Below are positions 5,305-43,200 of a stretch of DNA of 64,000 nucleotides, piece after piece (the stretch's first letter is position 1; every line of letters starts with the position of its first letter). Both the position numbers and the translations under genes were made by a program. Source of the DNA: Podospora anserina. Taxonomy: Eukaryota. Below the pieces are notes generated by a model that was given only the letters and a program-made list of their open reading frames with translations, did no database searches and had not been told where the DNA came from. The stretch covers positions 3,968,001 to 4,032,000 of the forward strand of contig CM030332.1 of the NCBI GenBank assembly GCA_017654855.1, written 5' to 3'.

Positions 5305-5380
5305 CGATTAGGGGGACGATTAGGGGGTGGATTAGGGGGTGGATTAGGGGGGGGTTGGATTAGGGGGGTGGCTTAGGGGG
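5305..5380 (+). repeat. Six-copy G-rich TTAGGGGG(G) degenerate telomere-like repeat
   Basis: TTAG followed by a G run at 5308, 5320, 5332, 5344, 5360 and 5373. Confidence 0.9.
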
Positions 5381-5631
5381 AATGGATGTACAGGTACTAC
5401 AGTGCGATGAAACCCTGGTCAGACTTCACCTGAATACCTGCAGTGCCTGCATACTGGACGGTTGGCGCTTATTTGAGTGGTGGTCATTGGAGCGGGGTAC
5501 AGACCGGTTGCCTTTCGAGACCCAAGTTGGGGTTTTTGGGTTTGAAGGATGAGTTCCCTTGGTGTTGGGATGGGAGAGGAGTTGTGTGATATTTCTATTC
5601 TTATTCTTATCTTGTTTGTTTTGATTGAGAG

Positions 5632-8600
5632 ATGTCGAATATGGGGTCGAGAACGAAAGATGATGAGCCGGTTAATGTTCTGTCGCTGGGTAAGTTCATC
5701 TACACTTCGGACTAGGGGATGAGCAGCTAATCAGTTGTGGTTTTAGATGGTGGAGGTGTACGAGGTGTTTCGTCGTTGGTGATTCTGGATCGGATTATGG
5801 AAAAGATTCAGAGGAGGGATGGGCTGGAGGAGATACCGAAGCCTTGTGACTATTTTGATATGATTGCTGGGACGAGTACAGGCGGGTGAGTATCTTTGTG
5901 ATTTTGTGTAGTGACCTAGACTGACGAGCGGTTGGTTGTAGGCTTATCGCAGTCATGTTGGGGAGACTAAGGATGTCTACTACTGAGGCCTTGAAGGCAT
6001 ACGACGATTGTGCTGCGAGTATCTTCAACAAGAAGAACAGGAAGACGGGGCAGTGTCGGACAAGTACAAGTCCACTGCACTGAAGGAAGCTGTTCAGAAG
6101 TTGGTCAAGGAGAGGGGAATGGGGGAGATAATGAGGGACCCGAAAAATCCCAAGAAGGGAAGGTGATTGTGTGTGTGATGCCTGCGGATTCTGTTGCGAC
6201 GGGGGAGACGAAGCTGGTTCGCTCTTTTCAGGGTGAGGATGATTGGGATAGTGAGATCAGGATCTGGGAGGCTTGCCGAGCGACGACTGCTGCTTCGAAA
6301 TATTTCAAGCCGCAGGAGCTGGGTGCAGGTGTACGCAAGGGGTTATTCATTGACGCGGCAGTTGGCTTCAACAATCCGGCAAATTACCTTTTGAAGGAGG
6401 CGCTGGATGAGTTTGGATCTCGCCGCCGCTTTAGATGTTTGATCAGTATTGGTACGGGTACGAAATCGATTGAGACTGTGAGGGTGAAGACTGGATTCAA
6501 GAACTACACGAAGGCCTGGGGGCAGCTTCAAGGTCTTATTGGGATGGTCAAGAATGTGGCTACCGACGCGGAGACGTCACATAAGCAGATTCATGACAGG
6601 TTTTCACGCTTTCCTGGGTCGTATCATCGGTTCAATGTACCGGATGGTGCCAAGGAGGTTGAGCTGGATGAATATAAGAAGATTCCGCAGCTCAAGGCCT
6701 TGACTAGGGATTACCTCGGTGGGGATAGTGTAGGTCGACAATACCTGAGGTGGTGGAGGGCTTGGGGGCTCGTGGCAGGTTCAAGCATGGGTTGACTTTG
6801 GGCCATGCCTGTAAGAAGCAACCGACTCACAAACTAGGTCTTGTTTGGGTATGCTAACAATGTTCCAGACTCTCCGGACAGTGACCAGCTATTTCTCTCA
6901 GACAGATCCAAGGCGATGGGAATACCGAGCAGCTTCTTCATAGGGAGACAAGATGTGCTGAACAAAATCGATCAAGTGTTTTGCGAGCGCGACACAGGAG
7001 GAGTTCCAAGGAGGGAATTTCTTCTGTGGGGGATAGGAGGCGTTGGGAAAAGTGAAGTTGCCCTCAAGGCGGCAGAGAACCTGGATGGAGGGTGGGCACA
7101 GTTCCATCACTTTATGTCCCTGGGCCGGTTACTGACAAAACCAAGATTGAAATATATCTTTTACGTCGATGGGTCAGAAAGATCTACGATTATTCATTCG
7201 TACGCCGAGATTTCTAAACGATACAACCTGGGCGGTACCAATCCAGAAACAATGTTCCACATGGCACTGGAATGGACGGGGCGCTTGGCAGACGAATGGC
7301 TCTTGATTTTTGACGACTGCAACTTGAGTGAGCGCGCCGGTTTCATACCGGGCAGAGGAAAGGGCAACATCATCTACACATCACGCTTCAATGGCCTTGA
7401 GCACAACTTCCCGGCACACCTTGTCTACCACGTTGAACCTCTGGCCGAGAGGGACGCCGTTGAACTTCTTTTGGGAGCTTCTGGTCTCTTGGATGTGACA
7501 TCTGATTCAGACAAGGCTGGCCCTACGGTCCCGACACGACGAGCTCCAACAGGCGAGGAAACAGCTCTGGCAAATGAAATTGTTCATGAGCTTAGCTGCA
7601 TGCCTGTCTGCGTCGACAAAGCGGCTGCAGCTATCAGAGAGAGAGGAATGGAACTGGATGTATATCTCAAGGAGTTGCGTACACAAAAGGTTCGAGTCGC
7701 TACAGACCCCCGCTTCAAGGACACAAGTGTTGAGACTCAAGCAGCGTACGCAACTCTAGAGCTATCCTACGACCAGATCACAGCCATCCGTCATCGTGCC
7801 GGGAGAAGTGAAGAAGGACGCGCGGCACTCTTCGCCATGAAGGTCTTGAGCTTGTTGTCGTGCTATCACTATCAAGGATTTTCAACGGAAATTCTAACGA
7901 GGGCGGTGTTGAATCGGCGGAGTTGCAATGCCGACCTTTCTTACCCCTTGAAGCGCATTTTTCAAACCCCAGACAAAGGTTGGGATGATATGATGCAAGA
8001 GGACGGAGAAGGGGGCTGGGAGGTTCTGTTCTTTGCTCACGGGCTTCAAGTCTTGCGACGTTACTCCTTGGTCAGGCTGGCTCCTGACCGCCTCACCCTG
8101 TCCATGCATACCCTGGTTCATACTTGGGCTCAGCAAAGGATGGATCCAGAAGCTCGTGCTGAGGTTTGCTGGCTGGCAGGGGTTTTGCTCAGCGATGCAA
8201 TGACACCATGCTTGATTTTGAAGAACCGGAGGTATGCTATCGGTATGGCACCTCACATCGACTGTTGTTTCGCCATCGTACCAAAGACCCGGGATACTAT
8301 CCAGGAACACGATAATGCCCGTGTCCTTGGTCTCAAGCGCGGCGATGTGGTAGTTGGCCCTAAAAACATAACGTACCCAGTGGACGAGTACTACAATGCC
8401 CATCTTTTGTTCAGACTCGGGTGGTTTTACAGTGCTGTACAGCAGTTCAAACAGGCTGAATATTGCTGGAAGACCTGCCTTCGGCTTTTCAAGTATCAGG
8501 AGGATCCGTTTGGATGGGGTGCTATAAATACACTGACGCACCTGGCTACACTTTACCACGAGCATGGGTTTCTCGGCGAGGCAGAAGCGATGCATTGGGA

Positions 8601-10059
8601 GGCCATCGGCAGACTGGAGGCCAGAAAGCGAGAACGAGAACAGTACCTTCTGAAGGAACTAGAAAAGCGGGAGTTCGAAGAGAAGGCCAGTGTTTCAGCA
8701 CCGCAACGAGGGAGATTGCTGAAGACGGCCCTCGAGAAGACTACCCCGCAGCTTTTTTCCGCCCTTTCTTCTAAGGAGATGGAAGCCAGAATATTCCAGA
8801 CGTTCACTGCAACTGTCGTCAACCCTCTCGCTCGCCACAGGCCCGCAACCAACAGACGAAGTCCCATCGGAGCAGAGGTGGAAGTTCACGAGTCTACCGA
8901 CACTGCTGAAGATGCTGTGGCCACTGTCAGAAAGAAAAAACGCGCTGAAGAGACGGACTCTCTTGATGATCTCGAGGCTGAAATTCTCCTCAGGCACGGA
9001 AGGCTAGCAAGGGTACTGAAAGACCAAGGCAGAAACAAGAATGCAAAGAACTTGATGAACTGGGTCGTCCAGAAATGCCAAGAGGAACTGGTCGAGGATT
9101 CCCCCGAGCTTCTGAGACTTCAGAATGAGGCGAAGGCGATGACTGAGCCAAAGGACATGGACTGGTTCAAGAGACACGTGGACATGATGAACGAATCCGA
9201 CACCAACCAAAGCCTCGCCTTCTTCCAAACTGACGCGATTTACGAGCTGTTCGATCATTGGTGCTGGTCGATGTACCTCGCCGGCCGGTATTCTATGGCG
9301 ATCGATATGTACAAGAAATTCATCCCTAGGGCCGTGGATGTGTATGGATATCATAACCCGAAAGTCCTGAAGATGATGCGGCAAATGGCGGAGGCGGCCT
9401 GGTCTGCCGACAGGCTGGATGATGCCGTGTTCATTGCTGAGTAATGTCTCTTGCGGGCAGAAGATGTTTACCAGCTGTCACATATGGAGGTGATACTGGC
9501 CACGGAGCTACTTGCCAAAGCCCTTGGTAAGCAACGACCTGGAAGTGACAAGGAGGCGGAGGATATGTTTCGGCTTGCTCTGAACCGGGCGCAGTCCAAT
9601 CTTCCGAAGAATCACCCCGTCACTGAACGAATCAAGATAGAGTTTGATTCTTTCAAGCACCCACAGGAGCCTTCATACCTGACAGGTGCTAAGAGTCTGG
9701 AAGAGAGGTGGCTTGATCTCAAGGCTGATGTGAAGGCTCACTTTGCGGAGCTTGGGATGCTCAACGAGTACGCCTTAAGACTTCATGATTTCAAGGGCCT
9801 ACAGCCATGGAGATCCGAAGAGGAGTACCAGCGAAGATTGAGCAAGTTTTCGGTGCTGGCGCGTGCTCCTGGGAAGCTATTAGGCATCAAAAAGCCGGTA
9901 ATCGAAGGGCTATCCACCACCATAACGAGAAACGACCATGGAATTCAGCCTGAGGGAGGAGCCTCTCGGAAATCATCGACATCAAAGGGAAGGGTGTCGA
10001 TAGGGGCGACAACGATTTCAATGCTGCGAACACGCCGATCAGAGTATAGCATAGTTTGA
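5632..10059 (+). pseudogene. Patatin-like phospholipase-NB-ARC-TPR NLR, copy A; disrupted as sequenced
   Basis: ATG at 5632. Introns 5690-5746, 5886-5941, 6811-6868 and probably 7092-7145. Patatin motifs DGGGVRG and GTSTG, Walker A GIGGVGKS, Walker B WLLIFDD, MHTLVH, and TPR-like helices. Alignment to copy B needs +1 base near 6047-6050, 6157-6161 and 6740-6741. In-frame TAA at 9442-9444, with homology continuing after it. Confidence 0.8.
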
Positions 10060-10489
10060 GGGTTCTCATTTATTTTGCATTTCACTTTATACACAGCATG
10101 GGCTCATGAGAAACACGATATCATTTTTATTGCACACAGCTCAGACCACACATTATCTGATTTACACATTATTCAAGGATCATTTTAGCGGTCCCCTTTT
10201 ACACCCCCTACCAGCCCTAGTTTTATATACGGCCACAGTCTAGCCGCACTGTACGGGCTGCACCCAACCGGGCGCTTAAACATGACCTCGCCATTGGAGT
10301 GCATCGCCAAGGGCTAAGCATGCTGAGCCACCTCAGACAATAAAGGCACACAGCTAGCTCACTTTGTACAAATGTACCACGCTGCTGCCCTCAGTGAAAA
10401 TGGCTTCCCAGGAAACTCAGTGTTAACACCCCATCAACTGGCACTCGGGTCTCAAACTTGAGAACGGGTTTAATGTGCGAAGCTTCCCA

Positions 10490-13400
10490 ATGTCAACAGA
10501 CGATGAAGCAATCAATCTGCTGTCTTTTGGTAAGATAAAGCATCTGTATCAGAGTGGTGAGGGTAAGAGAACTAACATCATACAGATGGCGGAGGTGTCC
10601 GAGGTGTCACATCACTGCTTATTATCCACGAAATCATGATCAAGATCAAGGAAAGACACGGATTAGCTGAAATACCCAAGCCTTGCGATGTCTTCCACAT
10701 GATAGCCGGGACCAGCACGGGAGGGTGAGTACTCGATCCAGCAGGATAGTCTCTCTACAACTAACATCTGACCCAGCCTCATTGCCATCATGCTCGGCCG
10801 GCTTCGAATGTCCACCGAGGAAGCCTTACGCCAGTACGACGTCTGTGCCGAGAATATCTTCTCGTCCAAGAAGTGGGCGAACATCACAGAAAAGTTTCGT
10901 AGCACCCCGATGATAAATATTATCCAGAAACTCGTGGCGGAGAAAGACATGGGGGAAATGATGCGCGATCCTGCAAAGCCAGCAAAGGGTAAGGCGGTGG
11001 TTTGTACTATGCCGCGGAAGAGGGCGAATCCGAAGAATGTTCGGCGGATTCGCTCCTTTTCACCAGAAAAGGATAATTGGTAAGCTTTGTGCTGTTTGAA
11101 GTTTGGTTACCTGCATCGGGTGCGCTGACATTCTGGAATTGAATAGGGACAAAGAGGTGAAGATATGGGAGGCTGCCAGGGCCACAACGGCTGCTACCTT
11201 TTACTTCAAACCACAACCACTCACGGTCTCAACACCTCAGGGTGGTTCAAAAATTGAAGACTACATTGACGCTGCCTTTGGGGTTAATAACCCTACCAAC
11301 GAGCTCATCAAGGAAGCGGTTGCCGAATTTGGGCCCAGTCGACGGCTTGGTTGCTTGATCAGCATTGGGACTGGGACTAAACAGGAGCGTGTAATTTCCA
11401 GAGCTGCAAGTGGGTTGAGGAACGTCTGTGATATGTGGGGGAGTATATTTGATGTCGGGATGGCCATGAAGGACATGGTTACCAATGCCGAACTCGTGCA
11501 TTTCGACCTGGAAATGCGACTGAGACGAAAACCGGATGCCTACTTTCGCTTCAACGTTCCTCTTGCGGCAGACGAAGTCAGTCTGGCCCAGTATGGCAAG
11601 ATAGGAAAGCTCAAATCGATGACCGCTAAATACCTCTGCGAACCGGAGGTGGTTGGCAACATTGAGAGGGCGGCTGATATTTTGGAAACCGAGAATGCTG
11701 AACACCACCTGAACCTCGGAGCCCTATGTGAGTAGAAGGAGGTTGCTCTGAAGAATTCATTGCTGACGGGAGCCATAGCTGAACCAAGCGAAACAAGGCC
11801 TGACGAAAACCTAAAAGCAAACCTGATGGGTGAGGCAAGCCGGTACTTCACGGGAAGAAACCACATCATGGGGATCCTGAATACATTCTTCTCCGATCGA
11901 GAAGACGAGACTGTTCCTCGAAGAGAGTTCTGCCTCCATGGCCTTGGCGGTGTTGGGAAAACACAGATTGCGTTGAAGGCAGCCAACATATTCCGTCATG
12001 GGGATCCCGAGCTGGGCATACCGAGGAAGCGAAGGTTCCCGCATATTCTATATGTGGACGGCACCGACAAGACAACCATCAGCCAAAGTTATGCAAGCAT
12101 TGCAAGAGATGAATTTGGCATCGAGGCCAGTGGCAACTCTGACCAGTTGATGAGACAAGCTCTTCAGAAAATGGAACGGCTTGACGAGGATTGGTTTCTG
12201 ATTTACGACAACTGCAACCAGGAAGACCGCCGAGAGTTGCTACCGAAGGGGGACACAGGCAATGTTCTATTCACCACGAGAAACCGGGTGGTGCGAAACC
12301 AGATGCGAGATGAATGCGTCTATGATGTCGAGGTGTTGGAGGAACTGGACGCTATCCGGCTTCTCCTGACAGCCTCGGGATCAAAATACGCTGATCTGAA
12401 CGCATGGGACCAGTCAATAGGCAAGGAAATCGTCGAGGAACTTGGCTATCTGCCCCTCGCCATCGACCAGGCAGCTGCGTACATCAGAGAAGCTCCATGT
12501 CCCCTTGATGGCTACCTGGAAGTATTCCGCAAGCAAAGGGTCGAACTACTCCGAAACCCAAAGTTCAAAGGCTCGCTCGCACAGAACCAGGCCGTTTACA
12601 CCACATTCGAAGCATCTTACAAAGCCATCGCCCAGCTTGAACTGCACAACAAGAACACGCTTGGTAGAAACGCCGGTCTTGCTCTCCGAGCTCTCGATCT
12701 GGTATGTTTCTGGCACAACGAGAACATTCCAGTCAAAGTTGCTTGGTGGGGAGGCGTATCCTGGAAGAATCGACTCGACATGGGCAAGGACATGCCCGCG
12801 CTGGAAGAGCACTTGGCACAACTCACCGGGGACGAAACGATGACCTGGCGGAAGTTCTTCTTCCAGTTGAGCGAATCTAGGGATGGAGAATTCCCAAGCG
12901 CCCTCGACATCCTCGAACGGTACTCAATACTTACAGTGAAGGAACGGGAACTCGCCTCAATGCACGTCTTGGTTCACTCCTGGGCACGGGACCGGATGAA
13001 GGCTGAACACAGGGCACGACAAGCCCTTGTGTCAAAAGTCCTACTGTTGGACTCGATTGGCGACACACTCACCGCCACCTACGCACGTTCCTATCTCCAT
13101 TCGATTTACCCCCATGTTCGGGCGTGTCTTGAACACTCCACATGGGGATCTAGATCCCTCCATCTACCGTACGAGCTCGTCTTGAGAGGCAAATACGCGC
13201 ACATCCTCACCTTTCAGAAGCGTTTTGGTGAGGCCGAAGCCGAATACCTCGATATCATTCACTTGAGCAAATTGTCTATCGGGCCTACCACTTGGGCGGT
13301 TCAGCGGCCCCTCTGCTCTCTAGGGAAGCTCTACCATGAAATGGGTCGTTTGCGCGAAGCTGAGTTGACGTATCTCGAATGCATTGATCGCTGCATCTTG

Positions 13401-14867
13401 GAGAAGGAAGCAAATCGGATGGAGATAGAGGGGCGCGTAAAGGCACAACTTGCGCAACTGCGTGCCATCCCCAAGCGAAAGAAGCAGAATAAGAATGACG
13501 AATCGGACGAGGACAGACCGCCATCACCGCAGCTGAGCGAAGAGGAGATTGCCCAAGCAGCTCGCTGGTTCGTACCCGACTGGAATAGCACGGATAGCTG
13601 GCAGCTTCAGATTTCCAACATCGAAGAGAACCTTGCCAGGGTTTACTACGACCAGGCAAACACTGAAGATGATCTCATCTATTCCGCAGATCTTTTGGCC
13701 AGCGCGCTGTACCGACGAAAGAAGATACTCCACCCTGAAAACATGGAACTCTGGAGGACAGAAGATGAGTATCGAAGCAGAACCCAGCATCGGGATGTGA
13801 AGTACTGGCTGTTTCGGTTCGAAGCGGCAATGAAGACGTTCAAGTCTGAAGAGGACCAAGTCGCTTTCATTACAGGAGAATACCACGGCCGCCTTGTCCA
13901 GAATATGGCTAACAGCATGGTTGCCATGCGGCAATGTGTCAAGTATCACAAAGGCGAGGATTATTGGGCAGAAGACTTGAAGTGGATGTGGGAACAAGCC
14001 CACAAATACTACGGGACGATACTCTGGAATGGATTTATCAAGTGGTTCGGAGAGTCCGACTACAGGTGTCTCGAGGTGATGCGGCGGATGGTCAAGTGCC
14101 TCATTGGCTTGAAAAGATATGAAGAAGCTGAAGCACTCGCGAGAAGGTGCCTGGCGTCGAGCATTGTGGGCTATGGCGAATGTCACCAGCAAACGATCCT
14201 ATCCCTGGAAAAATTGCACGAGGCTATTGCTTGTCGACTGGGGGGTTATGATCTCGAGTCGGTTTATGTTATCAAGGAGGCTTTTCACAGGGCAGACGCC
14301 GTTTTCGGAGTAGACCACCGGCTCACGAAACGCACAGGCAAGAAAACCACCCGCGCCATGGAGAACTACCAAGAGAATCTCTCCGACTGGGCGTCAATGA
14401 GCCAAAACATCTTGACTGATGCTCACTGGGAGTATGGGGCAATGGAAGACCAGGAGACAAGAGAGGTGCTACTCGGTGAACGCGCAAAGCACCACCTCGT
14501 ATCGTACACGATACCTGACCCAAATTTCGACGCACGCCTTCGTAAGATGGCAGAAGCAAACGCAAAAGCGGTCTTGGAAGAGACGATGATGGAGGTTGAA
14601 TCAGAGGTGGCTCCAACAACAACAACAACAACAACACATACTCACTCAAGACATGTTGACATAACACCAGCAGCCACAAGCGAACCACCATCGCAAAGCA
14701 CTTCAAAATCACTTGGTCACCACCACAATCACGAGTCATTTGGCGAATCACAAGCGTCTACACTTTTCTCCCAAGCTCGAGAAGAGCAATACACATCTGA
14801 CAGCAGCAGCGGGGATACCAAAAGAAGTGGTGTAAACGATATCAAGGGAAAGTCAGTGGCAGAATAG
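10490..14867 (+). CDS. Patatin-like phospholipase-NB-ARC-TPR NLR, copy B; intact, about 1383 aa; PLP-1/PaPlp1-like allorecognition receptor
   Basis: Exons 10490-10529, 10586-10724, 10777-11079, 11147-11727 and 11779-14867 total 4152 nt and stay in frame. Motifs DGGGVRG, GTSTG, Walker A GLGGVGKT, Walker B WFLIYDN, YLPLAI, MHVLVH, and TPR-like SLGKLYHEMGRLREAELTY. Confidence 0.92.
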
Positions 14868-14940
14868 GTATATATACAGAGGCTTGAGGCTGGATACTAG
14901 TACACAAATGAATTAGAGGTTCTCATTCCATCGTTCACGC

Positions 14941-15535
14941 CTACGACTCATTCCCCTCCGTCCCCTTCTTTTGTATCGCCTGCATAAGCTCATACAACTG
15001 CCCGATTTGCTCATCTGTTCACCAAGTCAGCATTTCTCTGTAAACAAACCCCCAACAAACTCTCAAAAACAAAAACATACCACTCATCTTCTGAATCTTC
15101 CCCTCATCCAACTTCTCCCCCCTCCAAGCATCCCCCTCAACCTTCTGCGCGTACAGCTGCCACTCAGTGAGAAAGCCGATCTACTCCCAACATCAGTCTT
15201 CCATTCTCTCCTCAGACCCATCCCACATCACTCCTTGATGTTCAAGTCCCCCTTTATCTCTCCGCCCTGCTAGAAATCCTGTATCCTCAAAAAAAACAAC
15301 AAAAAAAACCAGTACTCACCAAATGAACCGGATTCTCCACGCTCCTATGCGCCCTAAACTCCGCCTTGACATACTCATCCCCCAACAACCTCATCTCCGC
15401 CGGCAGGTGCTTCCTGTGCGCCCTCAGCAACCGCCGGTACAAATAAATCGGGGGCAGCAGCGCCATCGGTGTCGGTTTGAGGCTGTTGCCCGATTGCATG
15501 GCCGCTGCCATGAGCGCTCTGGCTGTTGGTCTCAT
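14941..15535 (-). CDS. SDH7: Succinate dehydrogenase assembly factor 3 (SDH7/ACN9, LYR family)
   Basis: LYRRLLRAHRKHLPAEMRLLGDEYVKAEFRAH, then intron 15181-15319, IGFLTEWQLYAQKVEG, a second intron at about 15015-15080, and DEQIGQLYELMQAI...stop. Confidence 0.88.
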
Positions 15536-16014
15536 TGTTTCCCTTTGTGGGTGTGCTTCAGAATGACGAGAGCGAGGTTGTACTTTATGAGGCGTCTTTC
15601 ATGTTGTTGTTGATGTTGATGTTTTTCCAGTATCAAATTGCTGGTTTCTTCAACGTCGCAAAACATGATGCTGCCGAGCTGGTGGTAACGGGCCCACACA
15701 GTGTCCGTGGGTTGGGGTTTGAACGGTGCGCCGAGTGAAAAGTCAGGGGTTCAAGGGGGGTTAAGCATAAAGTCACTTCAATGTTGGGAGTCCGAGTATT
15801 CGTGAAAAGGCACCAAGACTGATCTGATACGGTCCATATTTACAAAAGAACCATGCCACCAATACTTAAACTACGCCTTCCTCGTTGTATTATTATATAC
15901 ACGTCCTACTACCATCCAAGTAGAGTCACCTTCTTGCTCAAACATGCCTCCTTCGCCATGTTATCACACCCCTTTCACCATCCAACCAGGACCTCCTTCC
16001 GGTCAAACACGCCT

Positions 16015-18363
16015 TCACCCCGACCTATCCACCGCCTCCACAATCCACTGCGCCTCTATGGCGCTCACCTTCTTCGCATAATTCTTTTGCGTATACACAT
16101 GCTCCAAAAACATAACCGCCTCCTTCTTCTGCCCGTGGAGCACACTAGCCGGGTGAACAGCCACCACATGCTTCCCATGCGCCGTCACATAACTGTTATC
16201 CGGCGCCAGAATCGCCGTCTTGAGCGCAAAACCCCTCAGGAAACACTTCAATATCACAGCGGATCTCTCTGGCGTGATAGGGTAGAAAGGCTGCGGATCC
16301 GCAGGCGGATGTTCCATCATCTTTTGCCTAACACAAAGCTGCCTCAGCTGTTTCCGAATATTCATCGCTTGCTTCATATTCCTGGTGTTGATCTTCCTGT
16401 CCTTGCACCAGCGTGCTCTATCGGCGTTCTCGGCGCTGTATTTCTGGATCGTGGTCAGGTACGTGATGAGATCACCTTCTCTCCTCCGCAACTCTTTCCT
16501 GAACTCCTCGGCTTCTTCCTTGGTCTCCTCTGACTGGATCTGAAGGAAAATGTCGTCACCTGCCGTGATGCACGAGATGATGTCGATGACCTCTAGCAGG
16601 CAGTCGTATTTTGGGGTTGCTGCTGCGATCAGAACACGAGCATATGGCGGTGGGACGGGGAACATGACCATCTTGCGCCCGATATCCGTGATGGACCCAT
16701 CATCTGCCAGCGCGCCGAGAATATGAAGATGGAGCAAAGCTTTTTCCACCGACTCAAATTCTGGGGGGTCCATGAGGGGAAAAGCCAGTACATCGTCAAT
16801 TCCTCTCGCCTTCATCGTCAGCACAGCGTTGAGCACATCCGTCCGGAGAATTTCGGGGAGGTCTGTCTTCTCAAGCGATTCGTAAGTCTCCTCTGTGTAG
16901 AGTCTGAAACACTTTCCAGGACCTTCTCTGCCAGCACGACCAGTCCTCTGAATAGCTGAAGATTTGGAGATCGGCTTGGCCAAGAGTGATTCCATGCCCA
17001 ATCGAGGTCTGTATTGCTTCACCTTCGCCTTACCACAGTCTACCACAAATCGCACACCGGGAACTGTGACTGAGGTTTCGGCGATGTTGGTAGCCAACAC
17101 GATCTTCCTGGTGTTCTTGTCCTTGGTAGGTTGGAAAGCTTTGTGCTGCGCCTCCATGGAAAGCTGGCCGAAAAGAGGCAAGACCACAACCTTGGGGACG
17201 CCAGCTGGCAATGTTTCCGCATGTTCTTCGATCAAGCGCTGGGCAGCTTCAATCTCCTCTTGACCAGTGAGGAAGGCTAGGATGTCTTTCCTTCCATGTT
17301 TGTCGAAGAGGGACTCCTGCTTGTGAATCTTGAATAGTGTGCTCAGGAGGGCTTCTTGGATATCTGGGACTGGTTTTGGCGTATGCGTGATCTCAACCGG
17401 AAACTGACGGCCTTCGATCTGGAGGAAATCCACGGAAGTTTTGGGTCTTGTCGCAGGAGGGGCACATTCTTCAGACCCTTCCAGATCGACGTCGGAAAAG
17501 AACTTCTTGATGCTGCCGACATTCGCCGTAGCACTCATGATGACGATTTTGAGCGGGATGCCGCCGCGACCAGCCTTGTCGCCAGAGAGGATCTGCTTCA
17601 GAAAACCAGATAGCAGATCAACATCGACGCTACGCTCGTGAATTTCATCCACGATGATTGCGCTGTACTGTCGGAGGTGCGGGTCGCGAAGAAGCTCTTG
17701 AAGCAGCATGCCTTCTGTGACATATTTGATCCTGGTGCCTTTCGGAACGCGGTGGTCGAAACGAACTGAATAGCCAACAATGCCGTCCGAAAGTGGGCCG
17801 TGTCTCTCCGTGTCCTTCTTCTTCCCTGGGATGTTGGCCTCCTTGGCCACGCGGTGCGCCAAGGTGGTTGCAGCGACTCGACGTGGTTGCGTGACTGCGA
17901 TCATACCTCCCACAGCCATTTCCTGCACGCCCCCATCTCCCTTGATTTTGGCCTTCTTCCTTTGACACCAGTCCTCTTGGATCAGAAATTGAGGCACTTG
18001 GGTACTCTTTCCGGAACCCGTCTCACCGACAAGAACCAAGACATCGTTTTGACGCAGCCTTTGTCGAATATCATCTTGCCGTGACCAAAGCGGGAGTGCT
18101 TGACGAGCGTCGAAATATTTTGGGTTGCCGACTAGTTTCAAACGCCCGCCTGCCTTGGGGTCTTTGCTTGTTGTCGATATTCCTTCCTTTGAGTCTGAGA
18201 GGCCCTCATTTAATGTCGACACGCCCTCTTTTGCTAGTGTGAGGGCGTCAGTTGAAGATTGCGAGGCCTCAAGCTTGGGCCTTTTCGTTAAATAACCACT
18301 CAAGTCGAGGATTTTCCCCCCCACACGAATACCGTCGCCGTCGTTTTTCCTTTTCTTGGCCAT
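16015..18363 (-). CDS. DHR2: DEAH-box ATP-dependent RNA helicase, DHR2-like
   Basis: GETGSGKST, TQPRRVAA, DEIHER, MSAT, ATNIAETSVT and QRTGRAGR. First ATG is at 18363 (MAKKRK). The subfamily assignment is inferred. Confidence 0.8.
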   Translation of the reverse strand: MAKKRKNDGDGIRVGGKILDLSGYLTKRPKLEASQSSTDALTLAKEGVSTLNEGLSDSKEGISTTSKDPKAGGRLKLVGNPKYFDARQALPLWSRQDDIRQRLRQNDVLVLVGETGSGKSTQVPQFLIQEDWCQRKKAKIKGDGGVQEMAVGGMIAVTQPRRVAATTLAHRVAKEANIPGKKKDTERHGPLSDGIVGYSVRFDHRVPKGTRIKYVTEGMLLQELLRDPHLRQYSAIIVDEIHERSVDVDLLSGFLKQILSGDKAGRGGIPLKIVIMSATANVGSIKKFFSDVDLEGSEECAPPATRPKTSVDFLQIEGRQFPVEITHTPKPVPDIQEALLSTLFKIHKQESLFDKHGRKDILAFLTGQEEIEAAQRLIEEHAETLPAGVPKVVVLPLFGQLSMEAQHKAFQPTKDKNTRKIVLATNIAETSVTVPGVRFVVDCGKAKVKQYRPRLGMESLLAKPISKSSAIQRTGRAGREGPGKCFRLYTEETYESLEKTDLPEILRTDVLNAVLTMKARGIDDVLAFPLMDPPEFESVEKALLHLHILGALADDGSITDIGRKMVMFPVPPPYARVLIAAATPKYDCLLEVIDIISCITAGDDIFLQIQSEETKEEAEEFRKELRRREGDLITYLTTIQKYSAENADRARWCKDRKINTRNMKQAMNIRKQLRQLCVRQKMMEHPPADPQPFYPITPERSAVILKCFLRGFALKTAILAPDNSYVTAHGKHVVAVHPASVLHGQKKEAVMFLEHVYTQKNYAKKVSAIEAQWIVEAVDRSG

Positions 18364-19252
18364 TTTGTCGAGTGATTTGAGGTTGTCTGGGAGAGGTTCA
18401 AGACACAAGAGTTGTGAGACTAAGATTTCTGAAGTGGTCGAACGTGATGTGATTGGCCAGACAGCTGGAGTAGGTGGGGCACCCAGTTCCGTTCTTGATG
18501 CCAAATAGATTTGAAAATTACAGTGTTATGCTTCTATGAAGGCCTTTTCAACATGGAGACATGAGAAAATTTGAACAGCACCAACAATACTTGAGAACCC
18601 GAAAAAGCATTCTGTGTTGCAACCTTAACCCAACCCCGATCATCAATAAGTGCAAGACAATATCGCATACCTGAAAACAACGTCAAGACAAATTCAGAAC
18701 GAGGGTTTATGCTGCCCATCATACTTTTCGCCGGGGCTCCTTTTTTAACTGCTTACATACTGCAAATTTTGTCGGACAGGATCACTGTCTTGGTTTTACT
18801 GTGCGATTGGCGTCAATAGTCACAAGGGGTCAAGATGTAAAGTCGTACACACACTTAGATGAAGCCAGCGAGGCAGGCTTCCCGGATGTCATGATTTGAT
18901 ACCCCGAATACAAACACTCGAAGCCTAAACTGGGTTCTATGATGATTGCTCAGATATTAAAGATGCCAGGTTGTGAAAGTATTGAATGATCATACATCAA
19001 GTGAAGTTTCATCCAAGCCAAACGCCATGAGAAATGGAAAACCACAACCAGAAGCAATGTACGTCTTGGTCTTATGTACGTTCAGACTCCAAGCTGGCAG
19101 AAATGCAACATGATAACTGGAATCACATATAAAATCACAAATTAACCAGACCGAAAACGTGAAACAAACATCATTTAGCAGAGACTACAAGGAAAACTAA
19201 ACCCGAAATATAAGCATCAGGCAACATAAACTATGCATGAGCCAACTGCATT

Positions 19253-20592
19253 TTAGGGAGAGTATTCCGCTTTCATGCGATTGTTCTGCGCACGAACTTT
19301 GTCCTTGGCAGCATCGGACTATCAAATTTTGTTAGCATGTTGATACATTCATCATAAGGAAATCGTCGACTCACCTTCACCGTTAGCCTGGTCACCTGGT
19401 TGATCTGTGCATCCGTCCGCACACTGAATCCCTTGGCCAGCATATTCATAGTCGAGACACTCAGTGCAATCTCTGTCATATCATCATCAATCTGATTGTT
19501 GAGTTCCTCTTGCTCTCCGTCATTATCCTCAAAGGCCCACTTTGAGCGATCGGCTTTGTTAAAGCCTAGGGTTGGCCGTCCCACTTGAGCAGTGGCGGCC
19601 TCCAGCTCTCGCTTCCGCAAAGCCTGCTCCTCCCGGAGCGCATCTCTATCAATCTCCCTCTCTCGCTCAGACTGAGCCTTCCTCGCTGAACGCTCGGCAA
19701 GCTTTCCTTTGCTATTTGCGGCCAAGTTGAAGAGTGACGAGTTGGCAGCGTCCAGATTGTCGAGGTGTGCGTGCGCCAAGCGAGCCTGATGCTCTGCAAC
19801 TTTGAGTTAGCATCGAGCACGAGTAAACTATAACGACATAGAACTGGAAAGCTTACTTGATTCATCGAGTTGCTGCTCAACCTTGTTGAGAATAGCCTCA
19901 TCTCTGTCATACATCTGGTGCATGCCCACCATACGCTCCACTCCTTCAGCAGCCTTCAGCCGGGCGCGAGCTGAGCTCTGGGCTGTCTCTTGAATGGTGT
20001 GGATGATTTCTCCCTTTTTGGTTTCTGCCTCGTAATCATCCTTCTCTTCCGCCGTCATGTTCTCATAATTGTCGGGAATCTCTGGACGAGGAGGTGGTGC
20101 CATTGCCGAATAGGGATCTCTCTGTTGACGCCCATCGAACAGGGGGTTTGGTTCACTCAAACCACCGTATCCTCCTTGTCTCGGGGGGGGAGCCTGAACG
20201 TTGTTGTTCTGGCCATAGCCGGCAGCATTATCGTATCTGTTGCCGCCATATCCGCTGGGGGCGCCAGGCCGATCATTCCCATATCCTATCGAAGGGCTGG
20301 ATGCAGCCGAATCATATCTCTTCTTGTTGTCTGTAAAGGCGGCATCATTCTGAGCGGAGTAAGGCGGTGGGGCGGAGCTTCCAGGACGAGGACCAGATGG
20401 TAAGCCGCCGCCGTAGCCACCGGGACGAGGACCGGACGGCAGTCCTGAAGGGACTCCGCGATTTCCGCCGTATGCAGGAGCGGACGAGTATGTGTCGCTG
20501 GACGGCGGTTGTTGCGCATAAGGGTTCACAGGTGTCTCGTTGGGCTTGTCTTTATCCGACTTGCTGCGGAATAGAGAGCTGAACTTGCCCAT
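19253..20592 (-). CDS. SEC9: Sec9/SNAP-25-like Qbc t-SNARE, about 406 aa, divergent allele
   Basis: ATG at 20592 (MGKFSSLF). N-terminus is rich in G/Y/P/N (NPYAQ, GGYGG). Introns 19794-19856 and 19319-19374. Two SNARE-length heptad helices are separated by a linker containing ADRSKWAFEDND. Confidence 0.85.
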
Positions 20593-22150
20593 GATGGGAT
20601 GCTGTGAATGGTTTAGTACGATAAACAAGACAAAAGGTTGAGTCGTCTGATGACAACGAGATGGTAAAACAGGTGTTGACAAGATGAAAAGGAAGGAAAG
20701 TATGTGATGTTAGGTGTTCAGGGGGCGTTTTGGCGTAAAGACCCCCTAACAGCTGGCGGGGCTTTGGGTGGAGCTCTGCGGCGGCGGGACGGTGGGATCC
20801 AGACGAGCTTGTGTCTTGAGACTGTTCCAGGCTGTGACCTATTCGGTAAAAGAGGAAAGCCCCTGCCTCGCAATGCTGACGACCACTTGCTTGACCGCAG
20901 TTAAGCAATTGGGGGTCGCTGTCCTAATCAACCGCCGGATCGTGACCGCCATGCAGCCACTTGGCGCTCCGCCACCAGGGATGATGCTTCAAAAGAAGGC
21001 TTCTGGAAATCCATTTTCAGCTTGTTTCTTTTCTTACCTTGTCAACCGCAGACTCCATCTTGACTTCGTGTTCATCGTCTGTTTCTTGGTCTCCTTTGAA
21101 ACAGCCTGACTTCCACTCTTCCTGCGAATCTGTCAACCCTGAAAATTGCGGCCCTTCGAGTTTCTCAGGGTCCTGTATCTCGCTGGATTGATGCAGGTCC
21201 AGTGGTGGGGGGCGCCGATGTTGCGACTGGTCCACTGCCATCTTGGCTTCGGGCTGGGGGTTTCGTCCGCTCCTATCGCTGTCGCTGGGGGGTTTGCTGG
21301 AATTGCTGGAATCACTGCACAGTGGTTCGCTGGAATAACTGAAATCGCTGCCTCGTGGCGAGAGGGGCTCCAGCTGGAGTTCTTTGATCAGCGAAGGATC
21401 CATGATGGCTCTAGATTGACGATTGACTGTTCATGGAACAAGCTGAGCGAAGTGGCTTCTCAATACAATGAAAGCCGTTCATTGAGAGAGGGTGGTGGCT
21501 TGCAAGAACAACTAAAAGTCTATCTGATAAGAAGAAAATACGACAGTACCTCAATTCAGGCGCCTTTTGCGCCTGAACAAAGGTACTGCCGTAATACGAA
21601 GCTAACGGAGAACAGGCCTTGTAACCTGGTCTCTGTTGCTGGCGACTGCCCAGTCACAGCGCGAATGCCATCCCAGGCCGCTTGCTCATTGACTGCACTT
21701 GGACCTTACATAAGTTCCCCAAATCTTGATGTGTCACTTTCGTCGGTGTGAGAGTCACCTTTTTTTTTTGTTGACGACAAATTCAAGGTGTTTGATAAGA
21801 ACACCTGAATTGATTCATCCCCTCCCACTGTTGACAGTACACCGAGTCACGAGTATCTTTATAACCCATTATCAAAATGTTTTCTTCTATTTAGATCGCC
21901 GTGATTCCCTTGCAGGCGCAGTCGAGTCCTCGTCCTTCAAGCCCTTTGCCTTAACATTGACCTGAAGCACGCATCTTCCGAGTTCAAGATGACACCACGA
22001 ATACACCTACACCTACACCGAATATATTTACTAGAAATGTCGATCAACCATACAATAGCATATCTACTCACCTAAGCACGCCTAACTCGCAGCATTTCAC
22101 AACAGCCACCTACAGATCTTACAAGGAATCGCCCCTAAAACCCAGCTCGA

Positions 22151-42358: not shown

Positions 42359-43200
42359 ATGGACCTCACTTCCCCACCCCCCGAGGAACCCCCCTCCTAC
42401 ATCGCCGCCGCCCGCAGCCACGGCATCCCCCTCCGTCAATCAGCCCCCATCAAACCCGGCCCCTTGCCGCTTCAACTCCCCATCCTCAACCACCTCCGCA
42501 CCAAGCGCGTGATTTTAGCCTCTGCCTCCCCCCGTCGAAGAGCAATGCTCAACCAAATCGGCCTCACAAACCTCGAAGTCTGGCCTTCAAACACCCCCGA
42601 GGACCTCGACAAGAAAACACACTCACCAGAGGAGTACGTCTCAGCCACCGCCCGAGCAAAATGCCACGCCGTCTACGAAGCCGTCCTCGCCGCCCAGGCC
42701 AAACCAGACGCCACCAAGGAACATTTGGAAGATCCAGCTGTTGTCATTGCAGCGGATACAATCATCGCCACCCGCGCAGGGCAGATATTGGAAAAGCCAA
42801 AAAACGAACAAGATCATGTTCGGATGCTGACGCATCTGAGGGATGGGAGGTATCACCGGGTTTTGACGGGGGTTTGCGTCATGGCGCCAAAGGCGGATGC
42901 GAGTCATCCGGGTTATGAGATTAGGGGGCATGTGGAGGATACGAAGGTTTACTTCGCGAGGGAGGAGGACGGGTTGCCGGACGATGTTATTGAGAGTTAT
43001 GTCAGGACGAGGGAGGGGGCGGATAAGGCGGGGGGGTATGCGCTGCAGGGGGTGGGGGGATGGTGCTTGTGGAGAAGGTGGAGGGGAGTGTGGATAATGT
43101 GATTGGGTTGCCGGTTAGGAAGTGTCTGCAGTTGTGTGAGAGGGTTGTTTTTAGGCAGGGGGAGGAGGTGGAGGGGGAGGAGGAGGATGAGGAGGAGTGA
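42359..43200 (+). CDS. Maf-like nucleoside triphosphate pyrophosphatase (one apparent -1 frameshift)
   Basis: VILASASPRRR, IAADTII, EKPK and DKAGGYALQG. Adding one G at 43054-43059 restores VEKVEGSVDNVIGLP and the stop at 43200. An alternative in-frame ATG lies at 42230. Confidence 0.85.

What the first reader, a model, noticed from the sequence alone, without database searches (positions are those of the whole stretch)
6047..9444. NLR copy A looks inactivated: three -1 frameshifts confined to the patatin effector plus a nonsense codon in the TPRs
Matching copy B requires an extra base at 6047-6050 (G run), 6157-6161 and 6740-6741. As read, the spliced frame stops at about 6083. TAA at 9442 interrupts AE*CLLRAE, which aligns with ARRCLASSI in copy B; CAA>TAA would fit RIP's CpA preference. 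Inference: a receptor that would recognise the resident Sec9 was silenced to avoid self-killing. Caveat: the Maf gene shows a homopolymer slip, so some indels could be assembly errors, but the TAA is not a homopolymer error.
Basis: partly seen in the sequence, partly recalled or inferred. Interest (0 to 1): 0.7.

Follow-up and report, generated by a model that had tools for sequence, protein, structure and literature searches.

The report
Broken immune-receptor gene beside fungal het-z
This is a genuinely broken, still-transcribed copy of a fungal cell-death receptor gene next to the known het-z self/non-self locus of Podospora, and it looks like ordinary gene decay rather than a gene silenced to avoid self-killing.

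Summary
The lesions are real. Raw Illumina reads and three contig sets show the window's letters at all four sites. Copy A is Podospora anserina Pa_1_11370, an ancient patatin–NB-ARC–TPR paralogue upstream of PaPlp1 (copy B) and Sec9 at the known het-z locus. It is still transcribed and spliced, but the frame ends after 112 codons. Frame-intact alleles in close relatives confirm three −1 deletions (the first at 6053/6054, not in the G run) and Gln→TAA at 9442.

The interpretation mostly fails. There is no RIP signature. Copy B has two allele classes and copy A has none. Copy A is broken beside both classes, with different lesions, and is intact beside S-class Sec9 in Triangularia setosa. Only about 11% of these NLRs are conserved across the species complex (PMC13449251).

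Best reading: decay of a dispensable NLR paralogue (about 70%). Selected silencing (about 12%) and a patatin-less sensor (about 7%) are not excluded. The scan noted a similar frameshifted patatin-NLR in another genome (unchecked).

The parts
5632..10059 (+). Copy A = Pa_1_11370, broken patatin–NB-ARC–TPR NLR gene; exons 5632-5689, 5747-5885, 5942-6810, 6869-7091, 7146-10059
   Evidence: RNA-contig joints; PODANS_1_11370 matches 6871-9441 in one unbroken frame; TPR_12 E 3.5e-8, Patatin E 4.4e-5 on a fragment, below cut-off
5869..5883 (+). GTSTG, patatin catalytic-serine motif (label recalled), upstream of the first break
   Evidence: sequence
6053..6054 (+). Lesion 1: one base missing (GG>G); intact alleles read KTGQVSDK
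   Evidence: no indel in 4 of 4 runs
6081..6083 (+). First premature stop of the spliced mRNA (112-aa product with the Ser motif but without the catalytic Asp motif)
6158..6162 (+). Lesion 2: one base missing in a short G/A run; intact alleles read KKGKVIV
6352..6360 (+). DAA, patatin catalytic-aspartate motif (label recalled), stranded between lesions 2 and 3
   Evidence: sequence
6740..6741 (+). Lesion 3: one base missing in an A run; intact alleles read GRQIREVV
6916..9444 (+). Residual open frame: NB-ARC (P-loop GIGGVGKS at 7030-7053) plus most TPRs, 824 aa spliced, behind 25 upstream AUGs
7092..7145 (+). Intron 4: 54 nt, stop-free, spliced in part of the RNA of one run and retained in the other; intact alleles differ by a further 1-nt indel near 7101-7103
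7690..7744 (+). Cryptic 55-nt GT..AG intron inside the NB-ARC coding region; removing it shifts the frame to a stop a few codons later
   Evidence: joint in 2 of 2 RNA-like runs at lower depth; products P0033, P0043
9442..9444 (+). Lesion 4: TAA where intact alleles of the complex have Gln
10490..14867 (+). Copy B = PaPlp1 (Pa_1_11380), intact, 1,383 aa, S-class allele (het-Z1 by inference)
   Evidence: spliced product identical to PODANS_1_11380/CDP23496.1; CDP23496.1 = PaPLP1 in PMC13449251
16015..18366 (-). DEAH-type RNA helicase gene between PaPlp1 and Sec9 (start approximate)
   Evidence: Pfam HA2, OB_NTP_bind, Helicase_C
19253..20592 (-). Sec9 t-SNARE (Pa_1_11410), S-class allele, two introns
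   Evidence: joints

Best explanation
[quoted passage not shown] Shown: the mRNA is spliced and its frame stops after 112 codons, before the catalytic Asp, so no full-length death receptor can be made from this allele. Inferred: selection was already weak before the lesions. Single-base losses in short runs and one C>T change then accumulated. Different lineages broke the gene at different places, whichever het-z class lay next to it. The het-z reaction is carried by the neighbouring PaPlp1 and Sec9.
For: Lesions present in 4 of 4 runs laid, with spliced RNA contigs.

Other lineages carry other lesions. P. pseudocomata has a 511-aa product with a frame switch at about 7468 and further model detours. 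P. pseudoanserina is split into 526 + 431 aa. One unnamed P. anserina-type allele (P0039) shifts at about 9105. None of the P. anserina-type records reaching the region runs past 9442 (P0001, P0030, P0031, P0032, P0034, P0035 end there; P0039 ends earlier).

Broken and intact states occur with both copy-B/Sec9 classes.

Copy A differs at 32-39 of 1,242 residues between distant alleles, including two frame-intact pairs (33, 34). S-class copy B differs at 11-14 of 1,289. The matched species pair gives 13 of 489 against 6 of 535.

A and B fall in separate clades, each with a Chaetomium globosum gene (CHGG_00910, CHGG_00911), so the pair is ancient.

Base rate: about 11% of P. anserina NLRs are conserved in all seven species, against 93% of random genes (PMC13449251 section 7). 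The same paper likens Pa_1_11370 to the decaying nwd2 (section 8).
Against: All three frameshifts of this allele fall in the first quarter of the gene (P 0.017-0.053, post hoc), and an 824-codon NB-ARC–TPR frame stays open.

Both named S-class genomes with a copy A record are broken (2 of 2), while 3 of 4 other-class records are intact or nearly so (two of these may be one strain). That is the direction self-avoidance predicts.

The gene is intact in T. setosa and T. verruculosa, so it had a function until recently, and some cause of loss is needed.

No dN/dS was possible because no DNA of relatives was available, and fast change is typical of functional NLRs too.

Breaks in P. pseudocomata and P. 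pseudoanserina are read from gene models, not reads; some could be assembly errors.
Confidence: 0.7

Rival explanations
1. Selected silencing: intact copy A would react against the resident S-class Sec9, or another self ligand, so null alleles were favoured, repeatedly on S-class haplotypes.
For: It has the same architecture as PLP-1 and is linked to Sec9. Broken in 2 of 2 named S-class genomes with a record, by different lesions; intact or nearly so in 3 of 4 other-class records. The first lesions hit the effector domain, which is needed for death in PLP-1 (PMC12881547 passages).
Against: Intact orthologue P0003 lies on the same T. setosa contig as an S-class Sec9 (SNARE1 86%, SNARE2 70% to S; another class gives 27-28%). 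Broken in other-class P. pseudoanserina. No allele classes in copy A's TPR. het-Z is described as reciprocal (PMC10890737). The second plp gene of N. crassa does not trigger death with sec-9 (PMC11138114), though it is not shown to be copy A's orthologue.
Confidence: 0.12
2. Effector-less sensor: the patatin part was disabled but the NB-ARC–TPR frame from AUG 6916 is translated and modulates or partners PaPlp1.
For: Frameshifts confined to the patatin part; 824 open codons with an intact P-loop; RNA contigs cover the whole gene at depths like copy B's (28-32 vs 27 and 53-98 vs 82; a poor measure). Lineage-specific changes are 9 of 766 in the open part against 10 of 482 in the dead parts (Fisher P 0.24).
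Against: 25 upstream AUGs and a long first ORF. The TPRs are cut by the nonsense codon. A frame-breaking cryptic intron lies in the NB-ARC region. Related alleles break inside NB-ARC or TPR (P0020, P0005, P0039). No significant extra constraint on the open part.
Confidence: 0.07
3. RIP inactivated the gene after a duplication or as spill-over from a repeat.
For: The stop is C>T at CpA; 13 of 20 lineage-specific changes are C:G>T:A transitions.
Against: TpA/ApT 0.60 and GC 51%, like copy B (0.55, 51%). 4 of 13 transitions at CpA against 3.5 expected, 2 of 13 at CpT against 2.9. One DNA match only in the genome. RIP does not make indels (established knowledge).
Confidence: 0.03
4. The breaks are assembly errors in homopolymers.
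For: All three losses lie in short runs, and the Maf gene in this window shows a G-run slip.
Against: Raw Illumina reads and three contig sets agree with the window at all four sites. The named S record ends at the same stop. The frameshifted middle fragment P0038 is on record from 24 contigs.
Confidence: 0.01

Closest known systems
Pa_1_11370 of Podospora anserina (PODANS_1_11370, CAP69475.1)
   Same: It is this gene: the record matches 6871-9441 without a break, ends at the same stop and lies next to PODANS_1_11380 and near PODANS_1_11410.
   Different: The record's 1,105-aa model steps around the three frameshifts with introns that the RNA contigs do not show, so it hides the lesions.
PaPlp1/HET-Z and N. 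crassa PLP-1 (patatin–NB-ARC–TPR receptors of SEC-9; Heller et al. 2018, seen only through citing papers)
   Same: Same three-domain plan, catalytic and P-loop motifs, and linkage to sec9.
   Different: Copy A is an ancient paralogue (53% patatin, 36% NB-ARC, 27% TPR to PaPlp1), has no allele classes and has no full-length frame in this allele. No test shows that it binds Sec9.
nwd2 beside het-s (P. anserina)
   Same: A decaying NLR beside an allorecognition gene under balancing selection; PMC13449251 draws this comparison.
   Different: nwd2 decay tracks the het-s allele and has a known cause; copy A decay does not track the het-z class in the records seen.
plp-2 of N. crassa
   Same: A second patatin NLR at a sec-9 locus that does not trigger death with sec-9 (PMC11138114).
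   Different: plp-2 shows balancing selection; copy A has no allele classes and is breaking. Neurospora proteins lie outside the A+B clade in the tree.

Membership tests
PLP-1-type NLR (patatin–NB-ARC–TPR) | N-terminal patatin domain with Gly-rich loop, GxSxG and Asp motifs | tested here: met
   DGGGVRG, GTSTG, DAA in the sequence (motif labels recalled); Pfam Patatin E 4.4e-5 on a fragment, below cut-off; 82-85% identity to annotated orthologues
PLP-1-type NLR (patatin–NB-ARC–TPR) | Central nucleotide-binding domain with P-loop | tested here: met
   GIGGVGKS at 7030-7053; no Pfam NB-ARC hit for copy A itself (AAA_16 E 5e-4 only), but 36% identity to copy B, which hits NB-ARC at 1e-8
PLP-1-type NLR (patatin–NB-ARC–TPR) | C-terminal TPRs | tested here: met
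   TPR_12 E 3.5e-8
PLP-1-type NLR (patatin–NB-ARC–TPR) | One reading frame joining the three domains | tested here: not met
   Stop at 6081-6083, three frameshifts, TAA 9442; met in relatives' alleles
het-z-type Sec9 allorecognition receptor | Linked to sec9 | tested here: met
   Sec9 at 19253-20592; same contig in T. setosa
het-z-type Sec9 allorecognition receptor | Divergent sensor alleles that track the haplotype class | tested here: not met
   Copy A TPR 97% identical in 4 of 4 complex alleles compared; copy B TPR 98-99% vs 72-73%
het-z-type Sec9 allorecognition receptor | Binds an incompatible Sec9 and triggers cell death | not testable with these tools
   Needs a bench test
RIP-inactivated gene | High-identity duplicate and excess CpA/CpT transitions | tested here: not met
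Transcribed pseudogene | Disabling lesions confirmed by reads, with intact orthologues | tested here: met
Transcribed pseudogene | Relaxed selection | tested here: inconclusive
   About 2.5-3 times more amino-acid change than S-class copy B; no dN/dS possible
Transcribed pseudogene | No functional product | not testable with these tools
   Needs ribosome profiling, proteomics or a deletion

The most novel reading that the evidence does not exclude
P. anserina disabled only the killing domain of this NLR and keeps a transcribed, patatin-less NB-ARC–TPR protein (824 aa from AUG 6916) that acts as a sensor partner or brake of the adjacent PaPlp1. Alternatively, repeated independent loss on S-class haplotypes records selection against autoimmunity. 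Either would be a natural, directly testable case of a fungal NLR tuned by loss of its effector.
Probability: 0.15. Interest if true: 0.65.

Novelty: already known. Interest (0 to 1): 0.2.

Why it matters
As it stands, it matters little. The locus is a characterised het system, and pseudogenised NLRs are common in this species complex. There are two practical points. The public 1,105-aa model of Pa_1_11370 hides three real frameshifts. Natural intact alleles exist in close relatives, so what the second NLR at het-z recognised can be tested without any repair. If an intact allele proved lethal only with S-class Sec9, it would be a clear example of autoimmunity-driven loss of a fungal NLR.

Tried and rejected
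Complex prediction of the TPR part of intact allele P0041 (420-890) with Sec9 P0046 (185-406) gave no verdict (score 0.00; alignments not used). It is not evidence either way.

Scan of JGI metagenomes for DNA around relatives: 49 pattern matches, 0 confirmed. I therefore had no DNA of other alleles, no dN/dS and no direct haplotype reading.

Sec9 of the other het-z class was not retrieved. The search covered only 135-431 aa, and some models are 531 aa. The class of those haplotypes is inferred from copy B.

No copy A protein was found for P. pseudopauciseta (S-class) or P. bellae-mahoneyi (other class). The search covered 477-1,519 aa, so absence proves nothing and both were left out of the counts.

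P. comata record P0036 detours at site 3, so it counts only as 'nearly intact'.

Heller et al. 2018 is not held. The supplement of PMC13449251 (Tables S1, S2, S4, Fig. S9), which probably scores this gene per strain, could not be read.

No run was on record as RNA. X16 and X19 are taken as RNA because their contigs skip GT..AG introns.

RIP and assembly error were rejected (see rivals). A first tree attempt returned nothing and was rerun with 34 sequences.
Full report
1. What the region is. The window is a stretch of a 36-Mb fungal genome. Protein searches name it. Copy B (10490-14867), spliced along RNA joints, is identical to PODANS_1_11380/CDP23496.1, which PMC13449251 calls PaPLP1, the het-z NLR. 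The SNARE gene at 19253-20592 (−) matches PODANS_1_11410 and proteins named SEC-9 in sister species. Copy A (5632-10059) matches PODANS_1_11370. This is therefore the het-z locus of Podospora anserina. I infer the het-Z1 haplotype: the other copy-B class includes a P. comata allele 99.8% identical to unnamed alleles, which fits the introgressed het-Z2 described in that paper.

2. The observation. RNA-like contigs define introns 5690-5746, 5886-5941, 6811-6868 and 7092-7145. Spliced as read, the frame ends at 6081-6083 after 112 codons. The product keeps the Gly-rich loop and the GTSTG motif but not the DAA motif at 6352 (motif labels recalled). Frame-intact alleles from close relatives (P0040/P0041, P0042/P0045, P0044/P0002, and the P. 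comata record P0036) fix the lesions. One base is missing at 6053/6054, one at 6158-6162 and one at 6740-6741, and TAA at 9442 replaces Gln.

3. Real or artefact. Four runs were laid on 5400-20700 at 85% likeness and a 5% threshold (4 of the 24 listed, of which 20 hold the stretch). No indel is listed anywhere and no other letter at the four sites. One run is raw Illumina reads, at about 24x, 12x and 17x in the bins holding the sites. All four runs differ from the window at three other places (12944, 17662, 20574), so they are probably not its source, although they may be a single strain. The named S record ends at the same stop. The assembly-error caveat is therefore settled for copy A. The Maf slip (G run 43054-43059) lies outside the stretch laid and was not tested.

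4. Expression. In two RNA-like runs copy A is covered end to end and spliced. Contig depths are near those of copy B (28-32 vs 27; 53-98 vs 82), which is a poor measure of level. Intron 4 is spliced in only part of one run. A further 55-nt GT..AG joint (7690-7744) inside the NB-ARC region breaks the frame, at depths 8.8 and 18.6 (products P0033, P0043). The longest open frame left starts at AUG 6916 (824 aa), behind 25 upstream AUGs.

5. RIP. GC (51%), TpA/ApT (0.60) and the substrate index (1.30) match copy B and the housekeeping neighbours. The genome holds one DNA match to copy A, itself. A and B align only in short patches, the best two at 67%. Of 20 changes private to this lineage over 1,250 codons, 13 are C:G>T:A. 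Four lie at CpA (3.5 expected), 2 at CpT (2.9), 5 at CpG (2.7; P 0.11) and 2 at CpC. The CpA context of the stop is what chance gives.

6. Age of the pair. I built a tree of the first 780 residues of 34 proteins (FastTree, 754 columns). Copy A groups with T. setosa, T. verruculosa and Cladorrhinum orthologues and with C. globosum CHGG_00910 (support 0.99). Copy B groups with second genes from the same contigs (support 1.0), and joins CHGG_00911 only weakly (0.51). A and B are old paralogues, not a recent duplication. Copy A was intact for most of its history (73% identity to T. setosa).

7. Test of self-avoidance. Copy B falls into two classes within the complex. The S class is P. anserina S, P. 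pseudopauciseta and P. pseudocomata (TPR 98-99%). The other class is P. comata, P. pseudoanserina, P. bellae-mahoneyi and unnamed contigs (TPR 72-73%). Copy A has no such classes: its TPR is 97% identical in 4 of 4 alleles compared, three of them from other-class haplotypes.

State of copy A by class. S class: broken in the window/S and in P. pseudocomata, with different lesions; no record for P. pseudopauciseta. Other class: intact on the 10,280- and 60,537-nt contigs, nearly intact in the P. comata model (possibly the same strain as the first), split in P. pseudoanserina; no record for P. bellae-mahoneyi.

Two cases go against it. In T. setosa an intact orthologue (KAK4181731) and an S-class Sec9 (KAK4181735; SNARE1 86%, SNARE2 70% to S, against 27-28% for the different class in Apiosordaria backusii) share one contig. 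An unnamed intact allele lies on a 9,833-nt contig, and an S-class Sec9 exon (P0047, 93% over SNARE1 residues 190-244) on a 10,567-nt contig. The two lengths sum to 20,369, against 20,364-20,366 for S-type contigs. The implied break (about 14620) falls in the Thr-repeat found in 3 of 3 S-class and 0 of 5 other-class copy-B proteins printed. That pairing is an inference from lengths only.

The literature adds two points. het-Z is described as reciprocal (PMC10890737 passage), and the second plp gene of N. crassa does not react with sec-9 (PMC11138114 passage). Specificity could hinge on a few residues, so the idea is weakened, not excluded.

8. Clustering in the effector domain. For this allele P is 0.017 for 3 of 3 frameshifts and 0.053 for 3 of 4 lesions, both post hoc. 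Across lineages, breaks also fall in NB-ARC (about 7468; end of the model at 8388) and in TPR (about 9105; 9442). A further 1-nt indel lies in intron 4 near 7101-7103, where it cannot affect the patatin domain. Private changes are 9 of 766 in the open part against 10 of 482 in the dead parts (P 0.24). A kept sensor is possible but unsupported.

9. Relaxed constraint. Distant copy A alleles differ at 32-39 of 1,242 residues, intact pairs included (33, 34; one close pair 9). S-class copy B differs at 11-14 of 1,289. For the one matched species pair the counts are 13 of 489 and 6 of 535. Genic DNA within the complex is over 98% identical (PMC10936905 passage), so about 3% amino-acid change is roughly what weak selection would give (my inference; no dN/dS).

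10. Mechanism and odds. Shown: lesions, splicing, early stop, intact relatives, independent breaks in gene models, no RIP signal, no allele classes. Inferred: loss of function by drift after the gene became dispensable, with het-z carried by PaPlp1 and Sec9 (0.70). Selected silencing 0.12; effector-less sensor 0.07; RIP 0.03; artefact 0.01; the rest other causes.

11. Known or new. The locus and the gene are known. PMC13449251 curated Pa_1_11370, reports stop codons and frameshifts in several NLRs, finds about 11% of NLRs conserved in all seven species, and compares this gene with the decaying nwd2. I could not see its figures or supplement, nor Heller et al. 2018, so I cannot say whether these four lesions are in print. 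In searches the gene name appeared only in the two versions of that paper (one search listed 30 of 527 papers).

Papers seen. PMC13449251: passages, section 6 part 1, sections 7 and 8. Passages only: 10.1101/2025.09.29.679196, PMC12881547, PMC9262711, PMC10197012, PMC10890737, 10.1101/2022.04.03.486892, PMC10936905, PMC11138114. Heller et al. 2018: nothing (recalled and via citing papers).

12. Verdict. Observation confirmed with one coordinate corrected; interpretation partly supported. Ordinary NLR turnover at a known locus; interest 0.2.

Noticed in passing
window 7690-7744: Cryptic 55-nt GT..AG intron inside the NB-ARC coding sequence of copy A, used in a minority of RNA in 2 of 2 RNA-like runs; it breaks the frame.
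   Followed up: partly
window 7092-7145: Intron 4 of copy A is 54 nt, stop-free and often retained; intact alleles differ by a 1-nt indel near 7101-7103.
   Followed up: partly
window 12944, 17662, 20574: The window differs from all four runs at three single bases: silent in PaPlp1, one in the helicase, and Leu vs Ile at Sec9 residue 7, where sister species also have Leu.
   Followed up: partly
window 5308-5378: Six TTAGGG hexamers at 12-16-nt spacing (telomere-like) about 250 nt upstream of copy A.
   Followed up: no
   Followed up: partly
P0048, P0060 (T. setosa contig) and P0050 (A. backusii): The S-class Sec9 SNARE type is shared with T. setosa and Cercophora samala, yet T. setosa's copy-B-side NLR is only 33% identical to PaPlp1 in the TPRs; A. 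backusii has a different Sec9 class.
   Followed up: partly
P0030 (PODANS_1_11370): The public 1,105-aa gene model uses introns not seen in RNA to step around the three frameshifts.
   Followed up: yes
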